A DNA stretch of 62,212 nucleotides, counting the filler, from Jimgerdemannia flammicorona (Eukaryota): NCBI GenBank assembly GCA_003990765.1. It is 3 parts of 3 records of this genome, joined end to end, with 100 filler letters (N's around TTAATTAATTAA, not from the genome) between each part and the next. Parts side by side here need not be neighbours in the genome. Positions count along the whole stretch, not along the records: positions 1 to 20,674 come from RBNJ01001617.1; 2 more parts are not named here. One strand, written 5' to 3'. Shown here piece by piece: positions 1,445 to 20,183 of the stretch (its first letter is position 1; each line of letters opens with the position of its first letter). The notes under the pieces were generated by a model that had not been told where the DNA came from, ran no database searches, and saw nothing but the letters and a program-made list of their open reading frames with translations. A program made the translations under genes and the position numbers.

Positions 1445-1612
1445 AGCTGCCTTTTGACGATTGATAATAATTGCAGCCAATTCCAATAAATAACAATGCA
1501 TGCCACATATCCTCTTAAACATGTCTTAAGGACTCGGCTCGACTAGCAGTGGCTTAGCCACAAATTAAAGCAAAGACGAAACCCGGAATAATAAAGGTGC
1601 CAAGGCACTGTG

Positions 1613-1646
<34 letters not shown>

Positions 1647-1798
1647 TATATATACGCTTACGTGTTGCCAAGGTCTGTTATCCGATAATGTTGATCGCCT
1701 TAATAAACTTCGCGGACATATGACCGCCTTCCTAAACGGAATTACGCCCGCCCTGTGAAACTAAAACATTGACCCCTTTTGTCCCTCACTATATTTTT

Positions 1799-2401
1799 TC
1801 ATTTGTTACCGAAAGGTGCAGGAGCTGAAGTCAACACATCCACATCCAGAAAAAGGTGTTGCATAATTTGCAACGTCAGCAGTGTATCAACTGCTGTTGC
1901 ATCTGCATCACCACGCGGCCTTAATTTGATCTTGTGCAACAAGCCCCTGTGAGAGGAAGTTTAGAAAAACAATTGTTTTTGATAAGATAAAGATGCGGTT
2001 CTGAATGCCTACCAGGGATGTAGACGATTCATTCCAAGAGGAATACGTAGATGCCACCTAGTGTACCTGGGTGGTGCAAGCGATTATGAGCTCGGAATGG
2101 CAACTTATGAGCAGGCGATGTTTTTCAAATGATTACACTTACTCAACATGCCTCCTACGGACGCCAGGGCGGATAGCATGGTCACAGACCTGTCCCGATA
2201 ACTTTGTGAATTATTATGATACGCCAGATTGTTGGTAGGTCTATGAAGGCAAAACTTGAATGACCTACCTGACCAGCCTGTTACTCCGTTTCAAATAGTC
2301 GGGCGTAATTGTAATTGTGCTGATACCATCATAATTTCCAGGTAGTCCTGGGTAGTAAATTCCAACAAAGTAATGGTGTCTCGTGGGATGAAAGGCATTC
2401 C
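1799..2401 (-). pseudogene. 3' relic of a membrane-protein gene (hydrophobic GG-containing helix followed by PWG)
   Basis: Four short exons with GT-AG introns read ..GISTITITPDYLKRSNRLVR|SVTMLSALASVGGML|STLGGIYVFL(fs)GMNRLHPW|GLLHKIK..QHLFLDVDVL..TGA. There is one frameshift and no recognisable 5' part. Confidence 0.45.
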
Positions 2402-2728
2402 CTATTTGAATGATATATATGTATGTTATAGCAGAGTAGGGTTTTAGTAAACGTGCTTATTCATAACTAATTATAAATAAACTCAATAGTTCTACTTGTT
2501 ATAGGTGATTATTATCCGACAGATTTTAATTCTCTGGATAACGAACAAATTTAATTTTTGTTCATTCAGCAATGAGTAATCATCGCTCAACTGGAAATTG
2601 TAACTGAATTATTGGCTTTATTTCCCAGCATTCACATCATCTCCCAACACACTATGTCATTTTTTTTTTAAAAAAAAAAAAAAGAAAATGTATTAGAAAC
2701 GACTGTTTCCTCCATAAATATCACATAT

Positions 2729-3221
2729 TTACTGTTTTACAAAAATCAAATAAATCGCGTGCACAATAGGCAAGTGCTTGATTGTTCCTGTCGCCTCTTC
2801 ATCCAACACGCATCCCTCTCCCATAGCGTCCTCCTTCGTCAACACTTTTTTACGATCCTTCTGGTACCCCTCCGGCACGGCCGTGACCATCTCTCTGAGC
2901 TTCAGCAGCCCCTCGCCGATCTCACGGTTGATATCCTCGAGAACCAGCAGGCCCAGCGGCCACAACCTACCGTCCTCCCCGCGCACATCCTGCGTGCCAA
3001 CGACAAACATGCCCGACGTGGGTAGCAGCGCGGCAGCCTCGTGCGCAATCTGAATAATCGTGGTCCGGTACAGCGGGACCTGTCGAGACTCGAGCGCGGT
3101 GTTCGGGACATGCGGGACCAGGCGCAGCGACGTCGGTGCCGGCCAGGGGAGCGGTGGCTTGGAGATCATGTGTTGGTGATGACTCACGTCGTCTGAGTCT
3201 TCGCTCAACTCAGATATTAGG
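2729..3221 (-). other. C-terminal degenerate second methyltransferase-like domain
   Basis: AHEAAALLPTSGMFVVGTQDVR..LWPLGLLVLEDI..LKLREMVTAV..IVHAIYLIFVK parallels ESWRLLKMGRRLTLGIGDNR..IPVSFQMM..FELEELVVK..FTHEFIATFKK of the first domain. No PPY motif is present (VPHVP is the likely equivalent). Confidence 0.6.
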
Positions 3222-4419
3222 CCCTGCGAATGCAGTGGAGGTGGCAGCGGTAGGCAGTTTGCGCGTGCACTACTCGGCCACGGAACGTTGGATGGTGAAA
3301 GTGATGTATCAATAAAAGCCACTTACCAAAGCGAGCAGCGTTCGGTTGTTCTCCTGGATACGTTTGAGTCGGAGTTTCTCGTACTCCGACAATGGCTCCT
3401 CGTCGTTCGCGACAATAATGTGACTCCCTAGAAAGAATAGGTGATTCATTATGACAAACTTTCACATCGCTACAATATCACTCACGTTATTCGATCATAC
3501 CAACCTCTTTCCTCCCCCTGCTGATCCTCGATCGTATCACCAGGATGCTACAAAACGCGTAAATAGGACGGTCACGGCGACGAAGATCAAAGTCACCCAT
3601 GATAACGTAACGCATTGCACAGTGTCGCTCAATTGATAAGCCAAACTATCACGGGACCCACCTCCTTTGACATAAACTCCAGCCGGACCTCCTCCCAGTT
3701 TGCATCGTCTTTTCCGAACCGTTCCACCATACGCGATACGCACAAGTCCGCAAAACTGTGCTCCCGTGTCGGCTTGAAGACCCATACGGTGCCCATCACA
3801 ACGCTTTTACGCGCGATCGGGCACTGCGGAATCGCCCGGCGGACGTACGTTAGCTTAACGTGGGAGTCGCACGGCACGTCGTCTGGATTGTTTGTTGGGA
3901 AAGGTTCAAAAAAGATGAATCGGACTACTATAACCACGAGAATTTAGGGGCAATCTTTCGCGCATACCTTGGAGTAGGAGGCAATCGTGGCCCTCCCTCT
4001 TTACTTTTTTGAATGTGGCAATAAATTCGTGCGTAAAGCACAGAAAATCAAATTGTACACAAAGGTACGTGCCGAGACCAAAAGCAGAACAATACCGTTG
4101 ACGTTTGACCACCTGTTACAATCAAATAAATGTCCAGTGTCATATGGTGCACTCATTCGTAGCAAGGAATACGAATTCATGTCCCATTATGGAATATTTT
4201 GGACTCCCAACTTACCAACTCCTCCAGCTCGAATCCGCAGTCAATGTACTGTCGCATCATTTGGAAGCTGACGGGGATGTAGAAGCAGTGCTCGCGGTTG
4301 TCGCCGATTCCAAGCGTCAAGCGACGACCCATCTTCAGTAGCCTGTACGAAGTGATAATTCGTCGTGAGCCTACATGGGGTACTTTGCGCAAGCGCGTTC
4401 ATTCATTTATTTATTTACT

Positions 4420-4469
<50 letters not shown>

Positions 4470-6168
4470 ACGCACCTCCATGATTCATTCACGACCTTGG
4501 TCATTTCCCTTTCGAATTCTTCAACGGTCGGGAATCTTTAAGAAATAGCGCTACCATCAATAAATGATCACACAAGCGGCATTGCATGACCTTCTCAAAC
4601 GTTTTCACATCGCATACCTCGATAAATCTCCATCAATATGTGTTGAATACGCAACGCAGTCCTTGTATGGAGGGTGCGACAGGATATGATCGTAGGACTC
4701 GTCCTCAAAGAGCGAGCCGGAGAGGTTACGCGAGTCAGCTTGAACGATGATGGGACGATGCTCGGCTGTTGCGAAACCCGGTGGGGTGGCGAAGGAGCAG
4801 TTGCGTTGGGAGAGAGCAACGGCCGCCTGGATCAAAGTTGGAAGGCAGAGTCAGTGCAGGAAGCAGGTGATCATAAGTTTGAATACAACGAAAAGTGTGC
4901 AAATGACTTACAGGATTGATGTCGACGCCGCAGCACCTGGACGGAGAACAAAGTGTAATGATTAGGTATGCTATAAATATATAATGGAGTCAACCTGAGC
5001 GGATAATAAGTTATCAACATGTCTCACCTGCGTTGCAATAAGAAAGACTCGATCGCATCCGTGCCTATGTTCAAAGAACATGACATCGTTACATGACATT
5101 GTTAACTAGCGTCGAAGCGCATGATATTTGTCGCATTCTTGACTACATATCACATATTCTACCTCTTCCCAAGAAATTGGATAGAACCCTTTCATGCTTC
5201 CGGGTAAAGCGCAAGATTGCTCTGTGCGAGTATCGTTGAAGTAATCGGTATCAGGGCTATTGCGTCATACTACGGGTCGAAGGAATAAATGGCACAGAAC
5301 TATACGTTTGTCCATAAAACTTACCGTCGAACAGTTTGCGGTAGCCACGTTCCTACGGGATGGGAACAACACGAACGTTAGTTGAATCGGTAATTCGCCA
5401 AAATTTGCATTACATCCTACATTTCCATATAGACCTACCATGATAGTCCGTCCCCGAATGCGTCGCCCACCTGGGTGCTCTTCCCGGTATATCAAAATAG
5501 GACGAATCAAACGCCAACGAAAACAGCTGGTGATCCCCTGGCTCGTACGAGGTAAGATACAAGGCGTCCGAACGGGTATCGTCGAACTTGTTGGCAGAAC
5601 ATGAAGTTCGAGTTAGGTATGGCTGGTGCGTGTAGTCCTCAATGGAGGCTGCGTACTTGTCTGCCGAGTTGGCGTCCAGTACCAGAGGGGCCTTTTTCGG
5701 CTCGTCGCTCTGGGCCAAATCGAGGGAGGTGCGTTCAAAACAACCTTCACACATAAGAACGCCATTATACCCTATATTGAAAATTACGGATCGTTGGCGT
5801 CATAGATAAGCTATACCGTTATGTTTTTTTTTTTTTTTTATTTTTTTTACGCAATTGTAACATACCTTTCCTCCATCGATCTGATGATTCCGTCCAGCAA
5901 TATGAACAGTAAAGCTTGTTTTTCCGACGCCCCTTAGGGAACAATAGAGGCTTGCGGGTAACTTGAATGATATGTTATGCATATTAACTTTCGAATGATA
6001 CTGAATCTTGTCGAACATGACCATATATATTTTGTATATACCTGTGGCATTGACTTCCTGCTTTGCACGAGCCGCTTCCGCTTTCTTCTCAGCCTCCATT
6101 TCTTTGATGATGGCGACAGCTGGCAAAAGAAAAGAATTAGAACACCGGATTGTCGGCAATATAAAACG

Positions 6169-6209
<41 letters not shown>

Positions 6210-6210
6210 A

Positions 6211-6271
<61 letters not shown>

Positions 6272-9200
6272 CGTACAAGTTTCTTCGAAGAAGTCTCGAT
6301 CATGTTCATGATCTTCCGGAAACTTGTTCTCGAAGCACTGAAAGTTGCAAAATGTCAGCGGGTGTCAGCAGTGTGTTTATTCGATCGAAAGTACAACGTT
6401 AAAATAATTCTCGACAATATACTGACATCCGGACACAAGTCAAACGTCGAGAAATAGCGTTCGCTGCAAGGTATGCACGAATGCCACAACTCCTCTTGCA
6501 ACGATTTGGAACATCCGTCGCATCTGAAGACGTTTTCATAGACCTCTGAAGAAGAGAGCAAGTGAGTTCAATGTTGGGCATTAATATATATCGAAAAGGT
6601 CAAAAATCCACACCTTTCTTTTTGAAGAGCGCTTCGTGTGTCGGACACCAGAATATGACACCGTTCTGGAAGTATAAAACGGGTTTTTGCGTGCATGGTA
6701 GATGAAAACTCCTTGAACATTTAGGATCGAAACATCCAACCGTAGCACCTTTTTCTTTACAGTAAGCGCATTTCTGCATCAACAATTAGTATGGCAATGA
6801 TGGTTAGATATCAAGTCCGATGAGTATCAAAGCACAGCATGCCGAAAGTTTGGCAAAATAATTTCTCACCATTCCCCTGCCTCGTCTCAACGCCGCTGTC
6901 ACGTTATACCATTCGTCCTCCTTAGTCACGAACACTTCGGGCGAATACCTAGCGCACGCATCATGCACCCAGAACGACCGCTTTTTCTCTTCGCCCCTCC
7001 GATTCATGGTGGCGATTACAAATGGTCCAATGAAACCGCCATACTGGCCCGAGGTATCGTCGTCGTTACAGAACGAACAGATTTTGCGCTTTGACCACCG
7101 CTTCAGGTAGGCATACCCTTTGTCGCTGTCGAGCGGCATATCTGCTCGCAAGAGCTCTTGGTCTTCTGTATCTGACTGGTAATCAACATCAACGACGTCC
7201 TTCTCGTATGTGGAGACCAGCTCGCCTTTCACTGGTACGGGACCTAGTTCATCGGTGTTCATAATTGATTGCACAGCGAAACTGGACCGTGGATGATGAT
7301 GGTATTCTGGGAATTGGTGAGAGAAGCACCTATATCGATAAGGTTCATTTGAGTGTCTATGCACAAGAGTGGACCATGGTTCCCTGGCATATTCGATGAT
7401 TAGATTTCGATGACATGCTTACCAAAGACAAAGTTCGAAACTTTGATAATCGGATCCCTCGGATGGCACCTCGCAATAAGTGCAATAGTAGCGGAATTGC
7501 TTGATCATTATGTGGCATTGGTTGCAATAGACCTGCCAATTCGCACTTTCTGTGAAAATAAATGAGTCGATTTGATGGTAGTTTGGTAAAATTAATCGCG
7601 GTATGAAATTGATCTTCGACGATGGATTAAAGATAAACTTTTATATTCATTACCTTCCCACTCTACACCCTCCATATCTTCTCTAAAGTATTCTGCTTCC
7701 GGCTCCACAGCTTCAACCGAATCCTGGCATTGAGATGGACTCTGCCGTTGCCGCTTTTTACCTTGATATTGTTGTGTCGCCTCCATTTCCTCCTCTTCTT
7801 CCCCTTCTTCCAGCTCCCCGATGCGCAACCTCTCACTGTTGATATCCATCCATTCATCAAAGTACTGTGGATAACCTTCATAATGGACCAACACGCGGTA
7901 CCCCCGGACCGCGACGACCGTCGCGGCAAGCCATTCCTTGTTTCGATCGCGAGCCTCGAGATGCGAACCGGGCCGCAGCCTAGCTCGGAGCTCGTTTGGA
8001 TTCCGCGGCGCGTCCCGTGGTTCCGATCGGTCACATCCGAGGCGCCTCAAGCTCCGGCGCAGATTCTGCTCCCGCTCCACCCAGTCATCCGGCTCCAAAT
8101 TGGAATCAGGCTCCTTCTCCGTGACCACTTCGTCTGGGATTTCTTCACGTCTTTGTCGCTTTTCGGCTCTCTCCGGTTTGGATGTCTTGGAGGTGAGTGC
8201 GTCGCTACGTTCACGCCTTCGCCGCTTCCCAGGCCTCGAGATTGGGAGCCATTCTTCGTCCTTCGTCTGCGGCTGCTCGATTTCCTCGCGGCACACGCCA
8301 TCTTCGAGATCCGCCTCGCTTGTCACCTTAATCCTTCGACTTCCCTCTGGAATCCATTCGTCGAAGAACGCGTCCACGCCGCAGTAGTGGATCCGCACCC
8401 TTCCGTTCTCAAGCGCGACCAGCCGTGCCTCGTACCATTTCTTATCCAGGTTCAGGACTTTGATGTGCTGATTGAATTCGTAGCCGTAAAGGTTCAACCC
8501 AAACCCGCTTGGGCCAGATAGTTGCCGCAAGGCGCGACGTGTCATGAAGGCGCCAGTCGTCCGATAACTCGAAGCCTCGACCGAGGATGACTGCGCCGTG
8601 GTATCATTGTCCATCTCGAAGTTGGATTTATTTCTGGACGACGTTTCCTGCCGTCGCCGGCCACCCGTTTGCTCGTGTCCCGACACGCTTTGGAGAGACA
8701 TCTGCGGTCTCCGCCGTCTCAGAAAACGTTCGTTCGTCTGCTTGGGTGCCGTTTCCGCTGACTCCGGCTCCGCCGGCCCAGGCTCCGCCGACTCAGGTTC
8801 TATATGGTGCTGCTGCTTTCTCCTCAACTTCGCTTCGTTCTCGAACTCCGGATTCTCTTCCACTTCGAACAGATACCCTAACCGCGAAGATTTCGGCGCT
8901 TGGATCGGCACATCGTTCGACAATACCCTCAACCTCCTGCTCCCCATCATAATCCACTGGTCGTATATGTCCTTCTTGTAACCCTTGAAATGTACCCGAA
9001 CCTTGCTTTGCCGCATCTCCGTCAGCTTGCCCTCGTCCCACTTGCCGTCCAGCGCGAGTACGGCCACCTGCGTGCCGTATCGGTAGCCGTACGGGTTCGG
9101 TTCGAAACCGAACGCGTCCGCCAGCTTGCGCACCGTGCTGCGCGTGAGGAAGGCGCCCGTCGTGAAATAGTCGAAGGATTGGGCATCTTGTATCGCATAT

Positions 9201-12200
9201 CTCTCGGAAGATTGAGACTGGGATAATGCTGTTACTTGTTGATTTGGTACAGGGCTGTACTTCGTTGGAGCGAGCTTTTTATGGGAGAATTTGTGACTTG
9301 ATGCGACCGTGGGCAAACAGTCGGATATTTGTTCATCACTGATTTCTTTCATCGTCGACGTTTCTGAAGATTCAGGTTCGACTGGCGTCAAGGTTTCTTC
9401 ATGCGGCATGGCAGTATCATTGGTCGGTTCGATCGATTTCCTGGGTGCGTACTTCCTATTCGTGGCGCGACGCTGTTCCCGCTGCAGATAATTCCATTGC
9501 CGATCGCTATTCGAATCGAAATCGTAAGCATCGCCCAACATACGGACCGTGCTGCGCGTGAGGAACGCGCCAGTGGTATAGTAATCAGGTACCTGTGGAT
9601 CATACGTCGTGTCTCTTGAGCTCGTAGCCTCCGACAGTTGATGGTGAAGGAACGCAGTGGTTTGTTGATGGGGTGCCGGGGTATACCTAATATTACTAAT
9701 GAATTTCCGGTGCGCGGATTTCCTTCTCGCGGCAGAACGTTCCGCCTGCGTCGCGGCATCCAGTGAATTTGGGAATTGTTCTGGCACGCTTTCTACAGGC
9801 GATATGGGCTCGATCTCCGTCGATTCGCTCGTGGACTGCGCGGATTTCCGTCTTGTAGCGAAACGATGTTCCGCGTGTACCGCAGGTTCTAAAATGTCCG
9901 AAAATTGTTCAGGTATCCTTTTTGTTGGTCTACGTTGCTCGGTACCGACCTTTGCCCAGTGCACATGTTCCCCTTTGCGGTGCACATGTTCGCCTTTGCG
10001 GTGCACATGTTCGCCTTTGCGGTGCGCATGTTTGCCTTTGCGGTGCACATGTTCGCCTTTGCGGTGCACATGTTCGCCTTTGCGGTGTACATGTTCGCCT
10101 TTGCGGTGCACATGTTCGCCTTTGTGGTGCACATGTTCGCCTTTGCGGTGCACATGTTTCGCATACGTTCGCTTGGGGGGACATTGTTCCGCCCGCGGCG
10201 TGATATCTAAATTGTCCGATGATTGTTCCTTCATCAATTCCGGAATCCCTTCGCGCTGCTCCAAACCGATGTCGGTCAATTCACTCGGGTTGGAGGGCAC
10301 GTCTTGGTTCATGTTGCTGATTGAAGTATCACATTGCGCGGGCTGCTCGTTCTCAGCTTCGAGATTCCCATGCTCGGCACTATCCAATATCTGCCCATCT
10401 GCCTCGACCTGACACTCATCACCCTTCCCGAACCCATTGATCGTCGGCACAAGCTGACCGAAACAATTCCCACATAACTCCACAACGTCCCAAGGACTAC
10501 GATCCAACGAGAAGCAGGTCTCAGCACACTCCTCGCAAAGAAAAAGATCTCCGGCCAATGCCGCTGCAGTCTGCTCCTCTGCAACCATCCCCGCCTCCTC
10601 CATCGACCCTTGTAGCCCCACCTCCTCGGTGTCGGGAGTGTCAACCGAATCCTCCGGCGTCCAAGACGCTAGCCGAGGGTCTCTCCTAGTCGCGATCAGA
10701 CCCAGCTCGACCCAGGGGCCCAGCACGTCGTCGTCGGACTGTAGAGAGCTCGCATCGTCGTCCCAGTCGCTGTCTGAGTCCGACAACGAAGTGACGGAGC
10801 TGGCCTCGGATTCGCTCTCGGCGTCATCGTCGGCAGGCTCTGACGCCACGCGGCTAGTCGTCGAGGAGGTGGAAGTTGCGTTGATGCCGTTCGTTGCCGG
10901 AAAGTGGATATCCATATCCATCTCGTGCTCGGACTCGCTGAGATCCCCTGCGTCGCTCAGCTCCGACAGATTTTCGTAGAGGTCAGAGAAGTCGCGGCTG
11001 GGCGCAGCTGCTTTCGAGGTGTCGTCGGCTTTGGTCGCGTCGTACTGGCGGGAGTTCTGATGGGCCGGCGCGGTTTCTGACAGGTCCTTCTCGCTCACTA
11101 TCTCCCGCACGCCGATCTTGAATTTGATGTTTTTGCTTGAGTTTGCGATTACATCGTCCTGCACAAACGAGAATGAAGAAGGATAAGAGTTTATCACGAT
11201 GCAGGTCATCCAAGTCTTTGTCCTAGAAATTCGATCAATCTTACCATTGTTCTCGTAGCCTGCTCGACACCTTTGCCAAAAGGACCGGCTTCTTTGGGTT
11301 GCAACACGTCGATCGACTTCGCCGCATCATCGTGGGCTACTTGGATCTCGGCGCGAGGAACATAGTTCTCGGGCATCACGTCCCACCGCCTAGACCTTTT
11401 GCGTCCCTTGTCTAAATTGTTCGGACCAGTCTTCTGATTGTCCAGTTCGACACTGCTCGTGAATGCGAAAATGGGTATCTCCAGTCGAGTTTCCACCTTC
11501 ACGCTCGATTCCACCGGCTTCACCATCGACTCGATAGTGGGTATCTCAGGCTTGAACGCCACCTCCGTCACACTAGACTCCGTCGGCGCCACGCTTGTCT
11601 CCATCGGGACCATCATCGTTTCGCCTTCCACCTTCGCCACGCTCGCCTCAGCCGGCGTCTGGTCCTTCTTCCCAGCCAACGCGTCCTCCGCCTCGTCGTC
11701 ATCGACCGCCAGCACGTTTCGTCGTCGGGCAAGCCGCAGGTTCGGCGACATTACCGGAAGACGCATGGGTGCTGCTGCTGCCTTCTCCTGCACGGTCTTA
11801 AACGCTTCCTTCTGGCCGTCAGTCCGGATACGCAGCCGAATCTCGATGTTCTTCGGACGTCCAATCGCTTGCTTCGGCTTAATTACGAACGAAGGCTTGG
11901 GAGCCGACGTTATCGTGACTGGCGTTGTCGTAGCCGGCGTTGTCGTAGCCGACGTTGTCGTGGCCGACGTTGTCATGGCCGGCATTGTCGTGGCCGGCGT
12001 TGTCGTGACCAGCGTTGTTATGGTCGGCATCGTCATGTTCGGCGTCGTCGTAGCCGGTGTCACCGAGGCTTTTGCGTCCCCGTTGCTTCCCTTCGGCGCC
12101 GTCGCATTTTTTACATCCCCACCATTTCCCTTGGTGGTCTCCCTCTTGCTAGCAACTACAGCCTTATTCGTCGCGGTCATTTTCGTCGCCGGCGCCGGGG

Positions 12201-12840
12201 GCGGCACCAGTGGCGGCGACAATGGCATGGCGTGCTCGATAATCATCTGTCGTCCGTATGTCTCCATACTGCCCATGTTTGAGTACGTGAAGTAGGGCGT
12301 TCCCGTCGGCGTCATTATTGGTGGCGACGGCAGTATGTTGTCATATGAAGGTTGGTGGTATGGCCAGGGTGGGAGCGCCGCGATCGGTGGGTATGCTAGC
12401 TCGGAAGGCGGTGGCGTCGGCAGAGGCGGCGGTGGTGGCGGCGGATAGTGATAGCATCCCTGTCCGTAAGGGACCTGGCGGTGAGATGTAATGAGTTGCG
12501 CAATACGACATACACGTGGCCAGTCCTACAGATAAGATCAAAACCTCACCGTATATTGGAACGCGGCGTACGCGTTTGGTTGATAGTGTTCGGGTGGCAC
12601 AACAGTCGGTGGATACAAGATCGGCTGACGCATCATCGCCGTCGTTGTCGTCGTCAGTGGCGGTGGCGGCGGCGGTAGCGGCGGAGGCGGCGGCAACGAC
12701 GATGATGGCGGTTGCTGTGTCTGTGGATGGTTTTGGGTGCTGCTGCTAGTGCCGCCCTCACGCGTCCACACGATGTTTTTGAAGGGAGGTCGCCTCGTCG
12801 TGGAGTACGGACCTGGGCCCTTCTTGACTTGCGGGTACAT
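2729..12840 (-). CDS. Large multi-exon chromatin-reader / amino-DNA-methyltransferase fusion protein (3x Tudor/chromo-barrel, ZZ, ePHD, ZZ, GATA, N6/N4-MTase, KRI motif, degenerate second MTase); start codon uncertain
   Basis: ORF-track pieces 12538-12957, 11206-12315, 7592-11209, 6804-7364, 6600-6785, 6355-6561, 5410-5754, 4605-4835, 4177-4392, 3906-4112, 3629-3937 and 2729-3322 join through canonical GT-AG introns. Splicing between ~3430 and 3660 was not fully resolved. Confidence 0.85.
3326..3395 (-). other. KRI-type helical motif
   Basis: Exon reads EEPLSEYEKLRLKRIQENNRTLLAL followed by G in the next exon. Confidence 0.65.
4006..5470 (-). other. Amino (N6-adenine/N4-cytosine type) DNA methyltransferase catalytic domain, split over about 9 small exons
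   Basis: Spliced sequence: WATHSGTDYHGTWLPQTVRRAILRFT..VLSNFLGRGTDAIE (motif I, FxGxG)..CCGVDINP..QADSRNL..DHILSHPPY (motif IV, 4665-4676)KDCVAYSTHIDGDLSRF..EMTKVVNESWRLLKMGRRLTLGIGDNR. Confidence 0.85.
5740..5915 (-). other. GATA-type zinc finger (intron-split)
   Basis: CSYC-WTESSDRWRKG|YNGVLM-CEGC gives C-x2-C-x17-C-x2-C. Confidence 0.8.
6169..6268. repeat. ~100-nt near-pure A homopolymer (poly-U in an intron of the minus-strand gene)
   Basis: Seen directly. It starts a few nt after the GT donor at 6275-6276. Confidence 0.85.
6277..7550 (-). other. ZZ finger - extended PHD (HC5HC2H-type) - ZZ finger cassette
   Basis: First ZZ: VYCNQC..RYYCTYC..FELCL.CF..HHH. ePHD: ICSFC..WVHDACARYSPEV..KCAYCKEKGATVGC..CSRSFHLPC..FWCPTH. 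Second ZZ: FRCDGC..WHSCIPC..FDLCPDCF..HEH. Confidence 0.85.
7820..9080 (-). other. Three Tudor/chromo-barrel (PHF20/MBT-like) methyl-lysine reader repeats
   Basis: DGKWDEGKL..VRVHFKGYKKDIYDQWI..SRRLR; DKKWYEARL..VRIHYCGVDAFFDEWI..SRRIK; NKEWLAATV..VLVHYEGYPQYFDEWM..SERLR. Confidence 0.8.
9959..10158. repeat. Coding minisatellite, 21-bp unit GTGCACATGTTCGCCTTTGCG x ~9.5, encoding (HVHRKGE)n on the minus strand
   Basis: Tandem repeat seen directly, in frame within ORF 7592-11209. Confidence 0.95.
11920..12058. repeat. Degenerate 15-bp coding repeat (GGCGTTGTCGTRGCC) encoding Thr-rich ATTTP/ATTTS units
   Basis: Seen directly within ORF 11206-12315. Confidence 0.75.
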
Positions 12841-14836
12841 CCCCGGCAGACGCTGCTGATGTTGATATCTTGACGCATCTCGGGGCCCTTGCCATGGTGC
12901 TGCTGGCGGCGGTGTCGGTTGTGGTTGCTTGGAATCTGCGACGGCGATGGAAAACAACTATAAACAACTCCCGAAGGCTGGCGCGGGCGAAGGGGATCCT
13001 TTCAAATACCTTGCCCACCAAGCTGCCATCCAAACGGGGACGACATTCTCTGCAAACTAGATTTTCACAATTTTGAATCTTCGACGCTTTTCCGTGTCTA
13101 TTTCGGGGAGTTTTTGGCGTCAACAATACCGAAGGGAGAAACTCGGCGTCACGTAATAAGGCCCTTCCCTTCCTCCATAACGTACCAATGTGTCTTTGGT
13201 CGCTGAACCCAATATACTGAATAACCTCCCACTGGGAGAAGGAACCCTTTGTTGGAGTTTTTTCTGGAGGAAAAGCCACTTAAAACCGGCTATTTCTTAG
13301 CATGAGACGCGTGTTTTTTTTTTGACAGCATGAGGTTTCCACGCTCCAAAACTCAAAACCTGTTGCGTTAGGACTGTGACTATTCTTGGGACTACTTTGC
13401 CTCGCTGGTTTCCCTTTTCGGAGAAGGTTGTTTGGGTGGCTGGACTCCATCAGAGACAGTTGACCAGAATGGGCATTGTGTGCAGGGGATATACATGTGA
13501 GCCTAAAGTTATATGAGGTGGCCACTTTTAAATCTTACCTCTGGTGGCTTAATATGACTAAAAACAGAGGAAGAAAATAAGATTTTAAAAGTGGCCGCCT
13601 CATATAGCGCCGTCTGAGGCAGCCCCAATCATTGGGCTTTGTGCCTATGCACAAAGCCATGGATTTTCTGCAGTCAAGCAAGCAGAAACAAGGTTGCGCT
13701 TGTGCAATCAAATGTCTCGCGTTTACTATATACCAGCCAATATATGTCGTTACCATGACCCCGACAGTCACATTCGCACGAGTTTGATCGATTGATCGAT
13801 GTTCCGGTGAAACATTAACAAAAAGCCACATGATGCTGGCACGGCGTGAGGTCTCCGTTTGTGCCTTTGTGGAGGGGACAATGTGCCCGATCTGCACACC
13901 TCATCTTAATGTCACCACGGTAATATAGTACAGTCACAGAGTACCCTCTCTCTTACCTCTTCACGAACACGAAGCCAAGGTTTCGACAAATCTCCCATGT
14001 CTTAGATATTCGCCAACCTCCGAATCTTCGGCATATAAATGAGAGGCATGGTATGGAGAACGGTAGGAAGGGGAGGAAAGCATGTTTTGTCGTGTCGATT
14101 ACGAACTAACACCACCACATCACACACATCATTTTCTGGCAAGTGACAAAGTAGTAACCGACATGCGCGCAGACTTGAGTATTTTTTGCGCGTCGCTTCC
14201 TTTTATGTCCTTAACACTCAATGTGGTAGGCAATCTGGTTTCCGCGCGAATATCACATCTCAACGATTCTGGTTCTGGTCGTGCGCTTTCTTTCCAAGCA
14301 GGTATCCGCCGTGAATATTAAAAGGCTATACGACTTCTGTCAGTTATTTGTTTCTGATTAGCTCCGAAACCTGTTCCCCGTTTGATTCACGCACACATTT
14401 ATTGCCACCACGACGCATTTAGCATGAGACACAAAGAACACATCCTCTGGGAACCGTTCGGGATTAGAGCTCGTAAAGCCAGCGTCGCATGGTAAATTGA
14501 TTGTGGTCCAGTTGCTGCACGAGGATGAAGGATGGTGTGGTATTAGCAGCGACAAAGGTGAATGGCCATCGGAGGAAACGGGGAGGGGTTGGTGCATAAA
14601 AATAAAATAATAATAACAAATGAATGAAGCAACTCTAGTATTTGGTAATACAGCAAAACATTGGGGCACTCTTTTAATGCTGTCATTTGCTTTCATTCGC
14701 CACATTAGCAACTCCTCTACCAATTCCAATGGAAAAAACCCCAACAACGAAGGAGGTCCCGTCACCATATCACCTACCAGCCGTCTTTCCTTTTTCTTTA
14801 ATCCACCGTCTCGACCGTGTACACTTCCTCCACTCA

Positions 14837-14997
14837 GACGTTGACCTAGACCGCGCTACATCAACACGTGCTACGAGTGCCTACGTCCAACCCGCTAATC
14901 AGCCCGCACAACCAGAAGCTTGTCGAGCTGCTCGAGCTCCTCGAACGCTATCGCGAGGGCTACAATGCACTGAGCTGTCGTCATATCATCGCCGCAT
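14837..14997 (+). pseudogene. Isolated fragment resembling the N-terminal lyase (8-kDa) domain of a family X DNA polymerase (Pol mu/lambda/Pol4-like)
   Basis: With two 1-nt frameshifts it reads DVDLD/RYINTCYECLRPT/PLISPHNQKLVELLELLERYRE..NALSCRHIIAA, matching the YxCxRPTPL..N..L..L....R......SYxxAI pattern. Confidence 0.5.
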
Positions 14998-15839
14998 GTG
15001 TGGAAAAGGCAAGCGACACGGACCCGCAGATGGATACGGGATGGTACTTAGGGTGGCTGTTCGCCCATCGCCATCGCAGAGGGTGGAATGGGTGACCGGA
15101 TGGTAATGTTCGGGTTACATCCTTGGTAGAACAGAAAATGAATCATAGAAGGCTGGCTTTTGTCGTTTTGATTTTCACCGTCCGCTGGGCATTCATCACA
15201 TATACGCAGTCCTACCCCCGAAAGCACGGAAGCCACGGTAAAAGTTCGTCTCCTTTCCTGTTTTCTCTCGATGAGCGCAACCAAGCATACCAATAGAATA
15301 TCTGACAAAACGCGACATTCTCAATGTGTCCTTTAAGGTCATGATGCTAACCCTATTTTATCGCTCGGATTTATTTTATCAAAAATACACATATACCTTC
15401 CGAAGGCATCGGCCGTAAGATCGGCGAGATTATCAAAATCTACCTCGAGACGAGTTCCATCTCGGAGAACGAGGCCCTCCTTGTTCAATCACATCTTCGG
15501 TGGGTGAGCCAAACGATCGTCTCTGTCCGTAGCCGTATACCATTTTCGGCTCCTCATCCTCTTATCTTTCCTTGGAGTCGGCCAAACCTCGCGAGTATCG
15601 GGAATACGAGCCGCCGGTTCTCGGGGACGCTGAAAAGGCGTCATGTGTTAGCGACATCGGTTTCGCCGGTTTCGCACGAGGCACCTTTTACAGGTTTGGC
15701 GTTCCGTGGAGGTAATACTCTTGGCGTCTTCGTCTGTAGGGGCCTCTTTACTCAATCCAGGAGCGGTGTCGCTCTGCTCGCAGGATGCCACAGATTGTTT
15801 GCAATGATCCTTTTGTCCTGGTGCTTGTGCTGAGGAATC

Positions 15840-17185: not shown

Positions 17186-20183
17186 ATGGACTGTGACCAA
17201 AACATGCATACTCCACAGGATAGTGCCCAAGCCTCGCAGACATCAAAGCGCATCCGGATGACCATGGCCTGCGAACGATGCAGGTAAGACAGTCCCCCCC
17301 CAATCCCAACCCACCCACAACCACGCAGTGGGTTTACCCGACTGAATCTCGGCAACTCCCGCGTCTCTAATAAACTGAACATCACTCTCCTTTTCTGGAC
17401 TTGCCGAATTCAGGTCGAAGAAAGGTAACGTCATCGGAACTTACCTCGTTGCCACTGTAGACCCCTGATCCCTCCTTTCGCATCTATTTTTTCTCATTCT
17501 TCTATCCACACTATTTCACAGTTAAGTGCGACTTTGTCCACCCGCAATGCACACGATGCCAGACCGCAAAATCCCCCTGCTCGTATGCGGGAACACCATC
17601 CCAGGTCGACCTGTTCAGCTTCGTACGACTTACCGATACAGTAGAGGTCTTGCAAGATAAAGTTGCCTCCATAGGTATGCCACTCCTTTCTTTTTTTTCT
17701 CTCTTTTTTATTTCTTCCCTCTGCCAATGAGCACACTTCATCCCCTCCACCAACGCTCATCGGTTCCCCCAGAAACGGACATGCGCGACATGCAATCCAA
17801 CACACAACTCATTATAGAGGAACTCCGATCCAAGCGCACCTACCCCTTTGACGACCACAAGCCCATTCACCCCTCCAATCCTCCCCCCCACCTCCCTATG
17901 TACCGCACACCCTCACGTCTCACCTTCGGCGGCCTCACCTCGGACATGGACCCCATGCAGCATAATTGGCAGATCACGCTCACGCAGCGCGGCATCCGCA
18001 TCGACACGAACATCGCCTCCATCCCGGACCTCTACGACATTCTTCTCAAGGGCGTCAACCGCCTCAGCATCCGATCAGATAGCCCCCAGGTTCCTGCTAC
18101 GAAGTCGAAACACCGACCGAACGAAAATCCTGACTCGCCCATCTCCTCGCCGCCATCCGCGCCCGGATCGCCGGAGGACATCGAGAGCGCTGTTGTCGTC
18201 AGGAACTACCCGTTCTGGAAACCATCTACGCTATCCTTTCCGCTATACAATGTCTGGGAGTCTGAGGCAGACCACAGGACATTGTCCCAGGTCGACGCCG
18301 AGCAGATCCCGCAGGAGACTGTCGACCGTCTCATGGACGACTATGTCGACTGCATCCTTGTCATGCAGCTCCCCGACAAGCGAGGCTTTCTCGCACAGTA
18401 CTACAACCGAACCCTCGACCCACTGGTGTCCAACGCCATACTCTCGTGGACCGCGCGACACTCAGCAATCTACCACAATAGGTTCCCGGGGAAGGATCCG
18501 AACACCGTCGGAGAGCATTTTTTCCAGCGCGCAAAGAATCTCCTGAAGGATCGTGTCTTCGAATCAAGCATAGTCACAATTCACGCACTCCTCATGATGT
18601 ACCTCTACCAGGTCGGGAAGATGGGTCCAACACGCCAGGAGACCCAGTCAGAGGCCTACCTTTTCCTTGGCATGGCGAACCGAATGAGTCTCGACCTCAA
18701 GCTTCACCAGCCAAAACCCGACCTTGACCCCATCAGCCAGGAGACCTACCGCCGCTTCTTCTGGACGGGATACTTCCTCGAGCTCCTCGCATCCGCGCAC
18801 ATGGAGAAACCGTCCATCGTGCCCGATCGCGACACCATCACCATCGCTGGATGCCGACCCATGGACCACGAGGACGACGATACGAGGTATAAGGTCGAGT
18901 TCATCTTCCACAGACACAGAATCGCACTCATTTATCGCGACATCACTTTAAATCTCACGAGAGAGGAACCTCTTCTCTCTGCCGTATCAACACTCGACCG
19001 GAAACTCAAGGCGTGGTACCACGAGCTCCCCGCCTATTTCCGATGGCAAATGGGCTCCACGCACGATTTCCGATCTGCCTCGTTCCGCGAACAGTCTTGC
19101 CTGAAGCTCATGTGCGAGTACCATTTCTGTCATCTACAACTGTACCGACCTTTTCTTGCGCCACCGGGGAATACACCTTCGACCATCGCCATCCTGTCGC
19201 AGGATATCTGCATCAAGTCTGCGTCCGCCATTAGCGCCATACTCGAACGATATACACACCTCAAGGCAGACTGGTGCCATTTTACCATCGACGCGTTCGC
19301 GATGGGGTGTCTCGTCCACCAGCACGTCGTCGTCGGGGTCGACAGGAGGAGCGCGGAGGCCTCGAGACTTTGGCTTGTGCGCTCCGTCGCGTTACTCAAA
19401 CGGTGCCCTGTTAGGCATCATAAAGCCGTTAGCTCGCTCGCAAGGTCGGTCGAAGAGTTTTTGGTGCAGCGCGGGATGGACCCGAGGGTAATGAGAGAGA
19501 TGGAGGCAAGGGAGGATCTAGTGGAAGGGTTGGAGAGGGTGGAGAATGATAACGAGGACACTGAGGAAGTTAAGACCGATTATAGGAACATGTTTGGCGG
19601 GTCGGTCGAGAGGTGCGCAAGCTCAACCCCGCCGCTCACATCATCCCCGATACTATTCCCACTACCGCAAACCCCATTACCCGCGTACATGTCAAAGCCG
19701 GCCCCACACCAATCTATCCAAGCACCTCTCCATCTGCAAGGCCCACTCGGCCCACATCCCCTCACAACGATCTCGAGTGCGGATATGTCCCTCCTGCCCT
19801 CGTTCACCCTCCCGACCTTCGACGTGGGCAATCAGCCGTTCTCACAGCAGGCCGTGAACGACATAAGCGCCAACACACCTGCATACTTCCAGTTCGCGGA
19901 CTTCTTGTACACGCCATCGCTCGACCTCGGGATCGATCCCGTGACCGCGGCGGCACACGACACGATATCGATCAACGAGTTGGGATCGAGATCTGGATTG
20001 TCGGCAGAGAATTCATCCATGTCACGCACTTCGGCGGGCCCGCTTAGACATCCGTCTGTATGCCGGAACCCGGTGCCTGTTCAGCCGACGCAGGAGGGCG
20101 GTATGAGAGTGTTCCCGAGCGGGCAGCAGGACCCAGAGGGTCTTTGGACGACAGCAGGGTCGTCAGGGCAGTATTATTTTTGA
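17186..20183 (+). CDS. Zn(II)2Cys6 fungal transcription factor with fungal-specific TF (middle homology) domain
   Basis: Exons 17186-17283, 17414-17424 (11-nt microexon), 17522-17674 and 17773-20183 give ACERCRSKKVKCDFVHPQCTRCQTAKSPCSY. Later: AYLFLGMANRMSLDLKLH..ETYRRFFWTGYFLE. Confidence 0.93.

What the first reader, a model, noticed from the sequence alone, without database searches (positions are those of the whole stretch)
2729..12840. Bacterial-type amino-DNA methyltransferase fused to a battery of chromatin readers
Seen: one spliced gene joining 3 Tudor/chromo-barrels, ZZ-ePHD-ZZ, a GATA finger, an MTase with intact FxGxG and HPPY motifs, a KRI motif and a second MTase-like domain. Established: Tudor/PHD/ZZ domains read histone tails and GATA fingers bind DNA. 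The characterised 6mA writers of early-diverging fungi are MT-A70 proteins, which this is not. Bdelloid N4CMT is a precedent for a bacterial amino-MTase recruited through a chromodomain. To my recollection a similar basal-fungal architecture has been predicted computationally but not characterised. Inference: a histone-mark-guided writer of 6mA or 4mC, i.e. an uncharacterised epigenetic system. This is the best candidate in the window.
Basis: partly seen in the sequence, partly recalled or inferred. Interest (0 to 1): 0.88.

Follow-up and report, generated by a model that had tools for sequence, protein, structure and literature searches.

The report
Chromatin-reader-fused bacterial-type DNA methyltransferase gene
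This is a real, expressed fungal gene that joins histone-reading domains to a methyltransferase of bacterial restriction-system origin; the family was predicted on paper in 2016 but has never been tested at the bench.

Summary
One minus-strand gene (stop 2729-2731, probable ATG 12840; 23 exons, about 2669 aa) encodes three Tudor/MBT-like barrels, ZZ-ePHD-ZZ, a GATA-like finger, an active amino-methyltransferase (FLGRGT ... SHPPY), a KRI motif and a degenerate second methyltransferase domain. Spliced transcript contigs join the methyltransferase end to the barrels in one molecule.

It is not new as a kind. Iyer, Zhang and Aravind (2016, PMC4738411) described exactly this architecture as "Group-1 clade 4" of basal fungi, related to second methylases of DpnII systems. 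My searches found no experimental work on it.

Added here:
- The I-to-IV motif order with HPPY is the signature of a large prokaryotic Type II methyltransferase family. In 18 of 40 loci examined, members sit beside Dam-like methylases and/or DpnII-type or DUF6996/6997 nucleases.
- The two-domain module (active plus degenerate) already exists in long prokaryotic forms; only KRI is a eukaryotic insertion.
- Orthologues with ePHD, KRI and both domains occur in the holozoans Chromosphaera and Corallochytrium, so the fusion is probably older than fungi.

The most likely function is chromatin-guided N6-adenine methylation of DNA. This is unproven, and Mucor genetics leaves little bulk 6mA for it to explain.

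The parts
2729..12840 (-). Whole coding region: 23 exons, 22 GT-AG introns, 2669 codons. Stop TAA is at 2729-2731 and the probable ATG at 12838-12840.
   Evidence: Spliced contigs; model built and checked.
11245..12840 (-). Exons 1-2: Pro/Thr/Ala-rich low-complexity N-terminus. The start codon and intron 12475-12549 are tentative.
   Evidence: Contigs differ from the window at 12445-12656 (table 5c).
9959..10158 (-). In-frame 21-nt x 9.5 tandem repeat encoding HRKGEHV heptads. The transcript contigs break here.
8915..9079 (-). Tudor/chromo-barrel-like domain 1.
   Evidence: Pfam Chromo_MORC2_6th and Tudor_4 on ORF residues 750-804; coordinates.
8288..8446 (-). Tudor/SAWADEE-like barrel 2.
   Evidence: Pfam SAWADEE 6e-6, ORF residues 961-1013.
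7826..7963 (-). MBT/Tudor-like barrel 3.
   Evidence: Pfam MBT 3.3e-12, ORF residues 1122-1167; the family profile hits L3MBTL3 in 3 stretches.
7293..7526 (-). ZZ-like zinc finger 1, split by intron 7330-7422.
   Evidence: Cys/His pattern. No Pfam hit on the exon alone. ZZ_ADA2 at 9e-4 in the same position in P0078.
6636..7080 (-). Extended PHD finger (ePHD/PZP type), split by intron 6774-6869.
   Evidence: zf-HC5HC2H 8.3e-10 on exon 6614-6773; the profile hits KMT2D ePHD at 6.8e-15, and also PHF6, Jade and BRPF1.
6302..6522 (-). ZZ-like zinc finger 2, split by intron 6338-6426.
   Evidence: Pattern. Faint ZZ hit E 0.18 and ZZ_ADA2 E 0.1 on the exon. ZZ at 8.7e-4 in the same position in P0085.
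5740..5908 (-). GATA-like CxxC-x17-CxxC finger, split by intron 5772-5865.
   Evidence: Pattern. Pfam GATA scores 24 bits in P0001 and P0002, below the 26.8 cut-off. The profile hits GATA-3 and AreA at E 0.01-0.02.
3968..5493 (-). Active amino-methyltransferase domain spread over 9 exons. Motif I (FLGRGT) lies at 5060-5175 and spans an intron. Motif II lies in exon 4912-4936. Motif IV (HPPY) lies at 4665-4676.
   Evidence: The window module is 31-40% identical to prokaryotic relatives, E 1e-36 to 1e-54. Orthologues match PADLOC PDLC03376 along its length.
3505..3882 (-). First half of the second, degenerate MTase-like domain. It has no glycine loop.
   Evidence: hhalign against long prokaryotic forms.
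3336..3383 (-). KRI motif (Y-E-x2-R-x3-I-x2-N) in exon 3327-3427, inserted inside the second domain.
   Evidence: Y, E, R, N and L are nearly invariant in 46 relatives. The motif is absent from the prokaryotic forms.
2732..3223 (-). Second half of the degenerate domain. PHVPN stands where motif IV would be. This is the last exon.
   Evidence: AF2 model of orthologue P0042.

Best explanation
The gene is the orthologue, in an early-diverging fungus that groups with Mucoromycotina in my tree, of the predicted 'Group-1 clade 4' adenine methyltransferases.

Proposed mechanism:
1. The N-terminal two thirds tether the protein to chromatin. Three Tudor/MBT-like barrels would read methyl-lysine. The ePHD and two ZZ-like fingers would read histone H3 tails. 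A GATA-like finger would touch DNA.
2. The C-terminal 600 residues are a two-domain module inherited whole from prokaryotic Type II restriction-modification methyltransferases of an HPPY family with the classical motif I-to-IV order.
3. The first domain binds SAM and transfers methyl to an exocyclic amino group, most likely N6 of adenine in DNA.
4. The second domain has lost both the SAM loop and the catalytic motif. It probably acts as a built-in partner that helps hold the nucleic acid, as METTL14 or MTA9 do for their active partners. It also carries the eukaryote-only KRI insertion.

Shown: one transcript, the architecture, conserved catalytic residues, and descent from R-M methyltransferases.
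Inferred: DNA as substrate (my odds about 0.6), adenine rather than cytosine, which histone marks are read, and the role of the second domain.

Because Mucor genetics accounts for bulk 6mA by other enzymes, I expect a locus-, stage- or strand-restricted mark rather than the main genomic 6mA. Examples would be single-stranded or replicating DNA, or sexual or spore stages.
For: One transcript: a 5389-nt spliced contig spans 2697-10001.

Orthology: 55 relatives of the HPPY exon were found. 51 carry an organism name and all of those are early-diverging fungi. Their precomputed Pfam sets combine MBT, Tudor_4, ePHD, PF01555 and in one case GATA. I confirmed this on five of them.

Active site: SHPPYK is present in 54 of 55 and F[LSI]GRGTDAI in 45 of 55. 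The misses are partial models. Invariant and near-invariant columns cover motifs I, II and IV across 46 sequences.

Prokaryotic descent:
- A profile search of 1.84 billion representatives gave 2456 hits, 171 of them at E<=1e-30. After the eukaryotic hits come prokaryotic proteins of 250-550 aa that align along the whole length of the active domain. Where a source names them, they are called DNA methyltransferase.
- Nearly all of those listed carry HPPY about 75 residues after FxGxGT; three have QPPY.
- Their best PADLOC model is PDLC03376 'Type II methyltransferase' over its full length (3e-94 and 3e-63). It is also the best model for 6 of 6 eukaryotic members tested (1e-21 to 1e-43).

Genomic context: of 40 prokaryotic loci examined, 17 have a D12 Dam-like methylase, 10 have a DpnII endonuclease immediately upstream, and 5 have a DUF6996/6997 protein that PADLOC calls a Type II REase. 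The union is 18 of 40.

Two-domain module: hhalign of 21 long prokaryotic forms against 46 eukaryotic ones gave probability 100, E 2.8e-67 and 446 aligned columns across both domains, with KRI as a eukaryotic insertion.

Structure: the AF2 model of orthologue P0042 shows two confident alpha/beta domains (pTM 0.72).

Single origin: one branch (SH-aLRT 98) separates 72 eukaryote-type from 50 prokaryotic sequences.

Literature: the same reading is given in PMC4738411.
Against: - No activity has been shown for any member.
- In Mucor lusitanicus, which has an orthologue, metB deletion removes 70-75% of 6mA together with the asymmetric motif, and mta1 or p1 deletion removes all symmetric sites (PMC11258239). 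A third DNA 6mA writer is therefore not needed for bulk methylation under those conditions.
- The best PDB match of the fungal profile by sequence is an archaeal tRNA m2G10 methyltransferase, aTrm11 (E 3.5e-4, aligned in the same order). It is level with a beta-class DNA methylase at 3.9e-4.
- Foldseek returns only generic class I methyltransferases, including Trm11.
- 22 of the 40 short-form prokaryotic loci showed no recognised R-M partner among the neighbours I scanned.
- The long forms, which are nearest to the eukaryotic module, mostly sit beside unknown proteins, not known nucleases.
- Histidine in motif IV has no characterised specificity that I know of (recalled).
- The ZZ and GATA assignments are below Pfam thresholds.
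Confidence: 0.6

Rival explanations
1. It methylates RNA, for example nascent or chromatin-associated transcripts (m6A or m2G), rather than DNA. The readers would place it at transcribed chromatin.
For: - The fungal profile aligns in the same order with aTrm11, a tRNA m2G10 methyltransferase, as its top PDB hit (E 3.5e-4). Trm11 structures are among the top Foldseek hits, with rmsd 3.2-4.5 A.
- Pfam UPF0020 and NCBIfam TIGR01177 and Trm14 give weak hits on the prokaryotic relatives.
- Iyer 2016 argue that clades related to ssDNA methylases have repeatedly shifted to RNA in eukaryotes.
- Mucor genetics leaves little DNA 6mA unexplained.
Against: - The prokaryotic family profile prefers DNA amino-methylases: TTHA0409 at 1e-26, then MboIIA, N4C-MTases, CcrM and HpyAVI at 1e-10 to 1e-14. 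aTrm11 scores 4e-10.
- The prokaryotic relatives sit in R-M cassettes and match a PADLOC Type II MTase model.
- No THUMP, PPR, KH or other RNA-binding domain was found in five orthologues.
- A GATA-like DNA finger is present.
Confidence: 0.15
2. It writes N4-methylcytosine in DNA, as the bdelloid N4CMT does.
For: The PF01555 superfamily has switched between 6mA and 4mC several times, and N4CMT is a chromodomain-fused precedent (PMC8885841). N4C methylases are among the solved relatives of the prokaryotic profile (8s9n, 5e-14).
Against: - Motif IV starts with H, not the S that marks N4C enzymes (PMC4738411).
- The prokaryotic relatives travel with Dam-like methylases and with DpnII, a GATC system.
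- N4CMT is of the permuted beta type, whereas this domain has the I-to-IV order.
Confidence: 0.07
3. It methylates a protein, for example a histone glutamine or another side-chain amide or amine. HemK/PrmC-type enzymes share the [DNSH]PP[YFW] motif, and the readers would bring it to its nucleosomal substrate.
For: The wider clade with this motif includes glutamine methyltransferases (PMC4738411). Weak PrmC hits appear on prokaryotic relatives and HemK appears at E 0.23. There are many histone-binding domains. No unexplained DNA 6mA remains in Mucor.
Against: Every close relative is an R-M-type DNA methylase. The HemK and PrmC hits are far weaker than the DNA-MTase hits.
Confidence: 0.05
4. The methyltransferase part is catalytically dead, and the protein is only a multivalent chromatin reader or scaffold.
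For: No activity has been shown. The second domain is clearly degenerate.
Against: Motifs I, II and IV of the first domain are invariant or nearly so across 46 sequences ranging from chytrids to Mucorales. They are also kept in the holozoan proteins, matching the prokaryotic consensus residue for residue.
Confidence: 0.05
5. The fusion is an artefact of reading neighbouring genes together, so the readers and the MTase are separate genes.
For: The transcript contigs break at 10001-10129, and the library type of the runs is only a guess.
Against: One contig joins 2697 to 10001 across 20 introns, from the last exon into the big exon that holds all three barrels. The break lies in a tandem repeat. 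Independent gene models in dozens of species have the same fusion.
Confidence: 0.02

Closest known systems
Group-1 clade 4 N6A-methyltransferases of basal fungi (Iyer, Zhang, Aravind, BioEssays 2016, PMC4738411)
   Same: The same architecture is listed there: Chromo-like domains, ZZ, PHD, GATA and KRI, an unpermuted active domain, and a second inactive MTase domain with KRI inserted. The same link to DpnII-type R-M systems is made. The window gene is an orthologue.
   Different: That paper says the clade is seen only in basal fungi. I find full-architecture members labelled Chromosphaera perkinsii and Corallochytrium. It does not say, in the passages I read, that the inactive second domain is already present in prokaryotic forms. 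I did not see its supporting information.
Prokaryotic HPPY-type Type II methyltransferases (PADLOC PDLC03376), the extra methylase in Dam-like + DpnII cassettes
   Same: The same motif order, and the same invariant residues: WATH, GNW-P, FxGxGT, DINP, HPPY, GDLS, IGD-R, K-Q and HE. Long forms share the degenerate second domain. Identity to the window module is 31-40%.
   Different: There are no reader domains and no KRI. The genes sit in R-M islands. Short forms have one domain only. Whether Streptococcus DpnA itself belongs to this family was not tested. The solved proteins named DpnA (5hek, 5hfj) are of the permuted type and match only over motif I.
Bdelloid rotifer N4CMT (PMC8885841)
   Same: It is also a bacterial PF01555-superfamily amino-methylase captured by a eukaryote and fused to a Royal-family methyl-lysine reader.
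   Different: N4CMT is the permuted beta type with one C-terminal chromodomain, is young (40-60 My), and is shown to write 4mC. The gene here has the I-to-IV order, HPPY, a much larger set of reader domains and a second dead domain. It dates back at least to the ancestor of fungi. That paper states N4CMT has no eukaryotic homologues.
MT-A70 writers: MTA1c/AMT1 complex and METTL3-METTL14
   Same: By inference it works the same way: an active subunit paired with an inactive paralogous fold plus DNA-binding parts. The lineages that hold this gene are also lineages with AMT1 and ApT 6mA (PMC12695648).
   Different: It is a different methyltransferase family. No PF05063 was found. Here the pair is covalently joined in one chain.
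MetB (PF02384) of Mucorales (Lax 2024, PMC11258239)
   Same: It is another R-M-derived adenine methylase acquired by early fungi from prokaryotes.
   Different: MetB is Type I/IIL HsdM-like with a target-recognition domain and no chromatin readers, and it is experimentally shown to write asymmetric 6mA. The gene here was not among the candidates deleted in that study.

Membership tests
Group-1 clade 4 fungal N6A-MTase (Iyer et al. 2016) | Unpermuted catalytic domain with a [DNSH]PP[YFW] motif after strand 4 | tested here: met
   FLGRGT lies 70 residues upstream of SHPPY in the window protein. In orthologues the C-terminal half of the PF01555 profile matches before the N-terminal half.
Group-1 clade 4 fungal N6A-MTase (Iyer et al. 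2016) | Fusion to Chromo-like, ZZ, PHD, GATA and KRI modules | tested here: met
   The barrels and ePHD are significant. KRI is present and conserved. ZZ and GATA rest on pattern plus sub-threshold hits only. AT-hook and the DNMT3-like finger were not looked for.
Group-1 clade 4 fungal N6A-MTase (Iyer et al. 2016) | [quoted passage not shown] | tested here: met
   The second alpha/beta domain lacks FxGxG and has PHVPN in place of motif IV. hhalign places KRI as an insertion within it.
Group-1 clade 4 fungal N6A-MTase (Iyer et al. 2016) | Prokaryotic relatives in DpnII-type R-M systems | tested here: met
   18 of 40 loci have a D12 methylase and/or a DpnII or DUF6996/6997 nuclease adjacent.
Group-1 clade 4 fungal N6A-MTase (Iyer et al. 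2016) | Distribution restricted to basal fungi | tested here: not met
   The window gene itself fits, because it groups with Mucoromycotina. The family, however, also has members labelled Chromosphaera perkinsii and 'Clim' (Corallochytrium). This is a claim about distribution, not a structural criterion.
Pfam PF01555 N6_N4_Mtase | Score above the gathering cut-off (26.7 bits) | tested here: met
   Met in orthologues P0001 (35.7), P0006 (42.7) and P0034 (34.2). P0002 (25.8) and P0012 (26.5) fall just below. Single window exons give no hit. The joined window protein was not scanned.
PADLOC PDLC03376 Type II methyltransferase (HPPY family) | Near-full-length match to the model, aligned in the same order | tested here: met
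   Model positions 14-21 to 248-249 of 249 are matched in four of the six eukaryotic members tested, which include Spizellomyces. The partial models P0041 and P0128 match from positions 68 and 56. E-values across all six are 1e-21 to 1e-43.
MT-A70 (PF05063) 6mA writers | MT-A70 domain with DPPW | tested here: not met
   No PF05063 hit in five orthologues at E<=0.01. The motif is HPPY.
MetB / N6_Mtase (PF02384) | HsdM-like N6_Mtase domain plus a target-recognition domain | tested here: not met
   No PF02384 hit.
Bdelloid N4CMT-like beta-class enzymes | Permuted order (motif IV before motif I), with S in motif IV for N4C | tested here: not met
   The order here is I then IV, and the residue is H.
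Trm11 / aTrm11 tRNA m2G10 methyltransferases | N-terminal THUMP domain plus a UPF0020 catalytic domain | tested here: not met
   No THUMP was found in orthologues. UPF0020 gives only weak hits on prokaryotic relatives, at or below its cut-off for most. DNA methylases score higher with the family profile.
Any active DNA adenine methyltransferase | Methyl transfer to adenine N6 in DNA | not testable with these tools
   This needs an enzyme assay or a knockout methylome.

The most novel reading that the evidence does not exclude
This is a third nucleic-acid amino-methylation pathway, steered by histone marks, that arose once before fungi and holozoans split and has been kept for about a billion years beside the AMT1/MTA1c system. 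It writes a mark that current maps miss or credit to others. One example would be de novo or strand-specific adenine methylation at GATC-like (SATS) ApT sites on single-stranded or newly replicated DNA, which AMT1 then maintains. In that case it would be the missing link between histone marks and where 6mA is first laid down in these lineages.
Probability: 0.2. Interest if true: 0.85.

Novelty: new member of a known kind. Interest (0 to 1): 0.48.

Why it matters
Work on fungal adenine methylation currently names two writers, MTA1c and MetB. A 2026 review of fungal methylation lists only those, in the passages I read. Yet nearly every early-diverging fungus sampled here also keeps this large gene, with an untouched catalytic site and a set of chromatin-reading domains. 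That is hard to explain unless it does something.

If it methylates DNA, it would be a direct, single-polypeptide link from histone marks to a DNA mark in a lineage where that crosstalk is now being studied (bioRxiv 2026.07.21.739721). If it methylates RNA or protein, it would be a new example of a restriction-system enzyme changing substrate after capture.

The tests are easy in Mucor or Rhizopus, where knockouts and methylomes already exist. The points added here give those tests a clearer starting point:
- the definition of the prokaryotic HPPY family and its GATC-system context;
- the prokaryotic origin of the active-plus-dead tandem;

Tried and rejected
- Whole genome: none is held for this window, so copy number and paralogues could not be checked.
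- RNA evidence: the look-up of sequencing runs listed no holder on record as RNA. The two runs are labelled 'RNA?' by guess. I treat them as transcript assemblies only because their contigs lack 20 or more GT-AG introns. Contigs say nothing about expression level.
- Pfam on single exons of the MTase gave nothing. The joined protein was kept inside scripts and not sent to any tool, so the family scans rest on orthologues.
- NCBIfam gave only sub-threshold hits on the prokaryotic relatives and none on fungal P0041.
- The conserved partners of the long prokaryotic forms could not be named. Family S (about 185 aa) and family B (about 400-450 aa) had no Pfam, NCBIfam or PADLOC match. Their being nucleases is a guess.
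- ZZ fingers could not be confirmed above threshold.
- The search of earlier findings by words returned nothing.
- Rejected idea: that histidine in motif IV is a fungal novelty signalling a new substrate. The prokaryotic relatives have it too, and [DNSH] is in the published motif.
- Rejected idea: that the domain is a tandem-duplication remnant of beta-class enzymes made in fungi. The I-to-IV order and the second domain are already prokaryotic.
- I did not run complex prediction, because the domain-packing claim is only an inference.
- Literature: I found no experimental paper on this family in searches. The library lacks most subscription journals. I did not see Iyer 2011, Mondo 2017 or any supplements.

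Full report
**What is there.** The finding lies on the minus strand. Stop-to-stop ORFs and the sequence show a long exon followed by many short ones with GT-AG borders. I could not obtain the genome.

Two public runs hold the stretch. Their library type is only a guess. When their contigs were laid on window 1500-15000, they skipped 15 listed introns, all with CT..AC ends on the + strand (checked as GT..AG on the minus strand).
- One contig of 5389 nt runs from 2697 to 10001 through all of them.
- Another covers 10129-12472 with one more intron.

From these joints, the contig pieces and GT-AG plus frame, I built a model of 23 exons and 22 introns.
- The frame is open for 2669 codons, from ATG 12840 to TAA 2729-2731.
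- The exonic length between 4345 and 7653 is 1852 nt, exactly that of the contig.
- The break between the two contigs falls in a 21-nt x 9.5 in-frame tandem repeat.
- The first intron (12475-12549) and the start codon rest on sequence alone. RNA cover continues to about 13600, and the contigs differ from the window in the Pro-rich stretch 12445-12656, so the N-terminus is uncertain.

The readers and the methyltransferase are therefore one gene.

**Domains.** On the big exon, Pfam finds three Royal-family barrels: Chromo_MORC2_6th 2e-14, MBT 3.3e-12, and SAWADEE and Tudor_4 at about 1e-5. One small exon is an ePHD (zf-HC5HC2H 8.3e-10).

A profile of 46 relatives gives these PDB hits:
- L3MBTL3 in three stretches (4e-17) and PHF20L1 Tudor (6e-8);
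- KMT2D ePHD (6.8e-15), plus PHF6, Jade, BRPF1 and AF10;
- GATA-3 and AreA, weakly (0.01-0.02).

The two ZZ fingers fit the Cys/His pattern. They reach only E 0.1-0.2 in the window exon and about 9e-4 in relatives at the same positions. The GATA finger scores 24 bits against a cut-off of 26.8. I count ZZ and GATA as probable, not shown.

The C-terminal 600 residues hold, in order:
- motif I (FLGRGT), motif II (VDINP) and motif IV (SHPPY);
- the rest of a methyltransferase fold;
- a second alpha/beta domain without a glycine loop, with PHVPN where motif IV would be;
- the KRI motif, inserted in the middle of that second domain.

An AF2 model of the orthologue P0042 (758 aa, 46-row alignment, pLDDT 69, pTM 0.72) shows two confident Rossmann-like domains with a long helix at the KRI position.

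**Relatives in eukaryotes.** The HPPY exon finds 55 proteins. 51 carry organism names, and all of those are early-diverging fungi: Mucorales, Umbelopsis, Mortierellales, Glomeromycotina, Basidiobolus, Kickxellales and chytrids. Their precomputed Pfam sets combine MBT, Tudor_4, ePHD and PF01555, which I confirmed on five.
- SHPPYK is present in 54 of 55 and F[LSI]GRGTDAI in 45 of 55. The misses are partial gene models.
- The search was seeded with this exon, so the 54 of 55 figure is partly circular. The 46-row alignment and the profile search below are less so.
- The window protein is 61% identical to the Umbelopsis protein over 992 residues and 47% to a Mucor protein over 1617 residues. Its first 1100 or so residues match nothing I held.

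**It is a described family.** Iyer, Zhang and Aravind (BioEssays 2016, PMC4738411; passages read) describe "Group-1 clade 4" as follows:
- seen only in basal fungi;
- an unpermuted catalytic domain;
[quoted passage not shown] - prokaryotic versions in DpnII systems, and a probable ssDNA preference.

Their motif is written [DNSH]PP[YFW], so histidine is already covered.

I found no experimental work on the family.
- Lax 2024 (PMC11258239; abstract, passages, section 12 in full) deleted metA (PF05175), metB (PF02384), metC (PF05063), mta1 and p1, but not this gene.
- A 2026 review of fungal methylation lists MTA1c and MetB as the 6mA writers (PMC13297926, passages).
- Romero Charria 2025 (PMC12695648, passages) treats MT-A70 only.
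- Rodriguez 2022 (PMC8885841, passages) states that the bdelloid PF01555 enzyme has no eukaryotic homologues.
- Searches gave nothing else.
- Supplements, Iyer 2011 and Mondo 2017 were not seen.

**Prokaryotic kin, tested independently.** A profile of 13 short fungal models searched against 1.84 billion representatives gave 2456 hits, 171 of them at E<=1e-30. After the eukaryotic proteins come proteins of 250-550 aa that align in the same order with the active domain. Where named, they are DNA methyltransferases from archaeal and bacterial MAGs.
- In the 150 listed, the prokaryotic ones carry FxGxGT about 75 residues before HPPY. Three have QPPY.
- Pfam PF01555 matches them in two pieces, with the profile's C-terminal half first.
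- So this order plus HPPY is a family signature and not a fungal change.
- Their profile finds permuted beta-class DNA amino-methylases as the best solved relatives: TTHA0409 at 1e-26, then MboIIA, N4C-MTases, CcrM, HpyAVI and RsrI. aTrm11 scores 4e-10.
- With the fungal profile alone, aTrm11 and TTHA0409 tie at about 4e-4. Foldseek is uninformative. No member of the family itself is solved.
- PADLOC's Type II methyltransferase model PDLC03376 matches the prokaryotic proteins over its full length (3e-94 and 3e-63). It is also the top hit for 6 of 6 eukaryotic members tested.

**Genomic context.** A genome scan found 601 relatives (cap reached) and I kept 80 loci. In the 40 loci with enough flank, I scanned 101 of 160 neighbouring ORFs.
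- 17 loci have a D12 Dam-like methylase.
- 10 have a DpnII endonuclease immediately upstream.
- 5 have a DUF6996/6997 protein that PADLOC calls a Type II REase.
- 18 of 40 have at least one of these.
- The usual order is Dam-like methylase, then nuclease, then HPPY methylase.
- One locus has DpnI next door. Others have a PD-(D/E)XK or PLD nuclease, a terminase or transposases. In the remaining loci the scanned neighbours were housekeeping genes or gave no Pfam hit.

This agrees with the published link to DpnII systems and points to adenine in GATC-type sites for that part of the family. I did not test whether pneumococcal DpnA itself is a member. From recollection it has the permuted order, and the solved proteins named DpnA match only over motif I.

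**New details.**

First, the second domain is not a eukaryotic invention.
- Long prokaryotic forms (416-548 aa) have an N-terminal Cys/His plus helix-turn-helix-like region, the active domain, and a C-terminal domain.
- hhalign aligns that C-terminal domain with the fungal degenerate domain: probability 100, E 2.8e-67, 446 columns over both domains.
- In 40 metagenome loci of long forms, the gene is followed on the same strand by an unnamed family of about 185 aa (15 loci), an unnamed family of about 400-450 aa (11 loci), or a divergent DpnII-like protein (3 loci, plus one upstream fragment). No Dam-like methylase lies beside it.

Second, the family is not only fungal.
- Two representatives are labelled Chromosphaera perkinsii and 'Clim' (the Corallochytrium limacisporum annotation prefix, as I recall it) by EukProt.
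- Both have ePHD plus the MTase, and one has a ZZ.
- The Clim protein aligns with the window module over 628 residues (32% identity), including SHPPY, the second domain and a KRI motif at the same place.
- Hyaloraphidium and Paramicrosporidium also have it.

A quick tree of the active domain supports these points (122 rows, 260 columns, LG+G4, SH-aLRT only).
- All 72 eukaryote-type rows fall on one side of a branch with support 98.
- The holozoan pair (89) lies outside the remaining 69 (84).
- The window sits in a 98-supported group with Umbelopsis and Mucorales.
- Caveats: most rows are unnamed and were classed by motif, several branches are long, the tree is unrooted, and no AU test was run.

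**How it most likely works.**
- *Shown:* one mRNA; a reader-rich N-terminal part; an active-looking amino-methyltransferase whose every family-invariant residue is kept; a dead partner domain; descent from R-M methylases.
- *Inferred:* the barrels, ePHD and ZZ fingers dock the protein on marked nucleosomes, and the GATA-like finger and the dead domain help hold nucleic acid. The active domain methylates adenine N6 in DNA.

My odds:

| Reading | Odds |
|---|---|
| DNA adenine | about 0.6 |
| RNA | 0.15 |
| DNA 4mC | 0.07 |
| Protein | 0.05 |
| Inactive scaffold | 0.05 |

The strongest evidence against a role as a general 6mA writer is genetic. In Mucor lusitanicus, metB deletion removes 70-75% of 6mA and the asymmetric motif, and mta1 or p1 deletion removes all symmetric sites. 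I therefore expect a restricted mark.

One speculative link: GATC is an ApT site of the SATS type, which carries the highest 6mA in AMT1-encoding species. Every named lineage with this gene is one reported to have AMT1-type 6mA. A role as a histone-guided initiator for that system is not excluded, but nothing here shows it.

**Verdict.** Interest is moderate. It is not surprising to a specialist who knows the 2016 survey, but it is a well-defined and easily testable gap in a currently active field.

Noticed in passing
window 9959-10158 (-): A 21-nt unit repeated 9.5 times (94% matches), in frame. It encodes HRKGEHV heptads in the non-conserved N-terminal part. Both transcript assemblies break here.
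   Followed up: partly
window 10463-10537 (-): A further CxxC-x17-CxxC pattern (GATA-like spacing) lies in the N-terminal region, which has no match in the relatives held. It might be the 'DNMT3-like' finger of the published architecture, or it might be chance.
   Followed up: no
window 12425-12675: The transcript contigs differ from the window in the Pro-rich coding stretch: 212 window bases are replaced by 32 others, and there are loose ends of GGT repeats. This could be a length polymorphism or an assembly collapse. An out-of-frame upstream ATG lies near 12896.
   Followed up: partly
window 6120-6276 and 4343-4475: Two introns hold very long homopolymer runs, about 100 T in the first and T then A runs in the second. 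Read laying skipped these as repeats.
   Followed up: no
window about 26000-32000 and 36000-48000: Two blocks have extreme GC skew: about -0.45, then +0.35 to +0.48. Around 38200 the sequence reads as a GDFN motif, which I recall from the endonuclease domains of non-LTR retrotransposons. This suggests LINE-like copies in opposite orientation. ORFs of 369-424 aa lie at 36661-39031.
   Followed up: no
window 17661-20183 (+): An open frame of 840 codons, the longest outside the finding. I did not examine it.
   Followed up: no
window 14421-15000: A separate transcript contig (2241 nt, X1 record 3) covers this stretch. Cover drops to near zero at 13677-14127, so the next transcribed unit starts beyond there.
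   Followed up: no
L083-L151 (e.g. L096:7569-8126, L112:5931-6488, L092:5419-6657, L107:7195-8433): Two conserved, unnamed protein families follow the long prokaryotic HPPY methylases on the same strand: about 185 aa in 15 loci and about 400-450 aa in 11 loci. They have no Pfam, NCBIfam or PADLOC match and are candidates for undescribed restriction nucleases.
   Followed up: partly
A4 columns 1-100 (P0106, P0107, P0115 and others): Long prokaryotic forms start with a C-x2-C ... H-x3-H element followed by a helix-turn-helix-like 'SD-EIG--fgv' segment. Neither is present in the eukaryotic proteins.
   Followed up: no
L031:4901-5668, L153:8402-9229, L090:4868-5785: One short-form locus has the methyl-dependent nuclease DpnI next to the HPPY methylase. 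Two long-form loci carry a second PF01555 methylase beside it.
   Followed up: no
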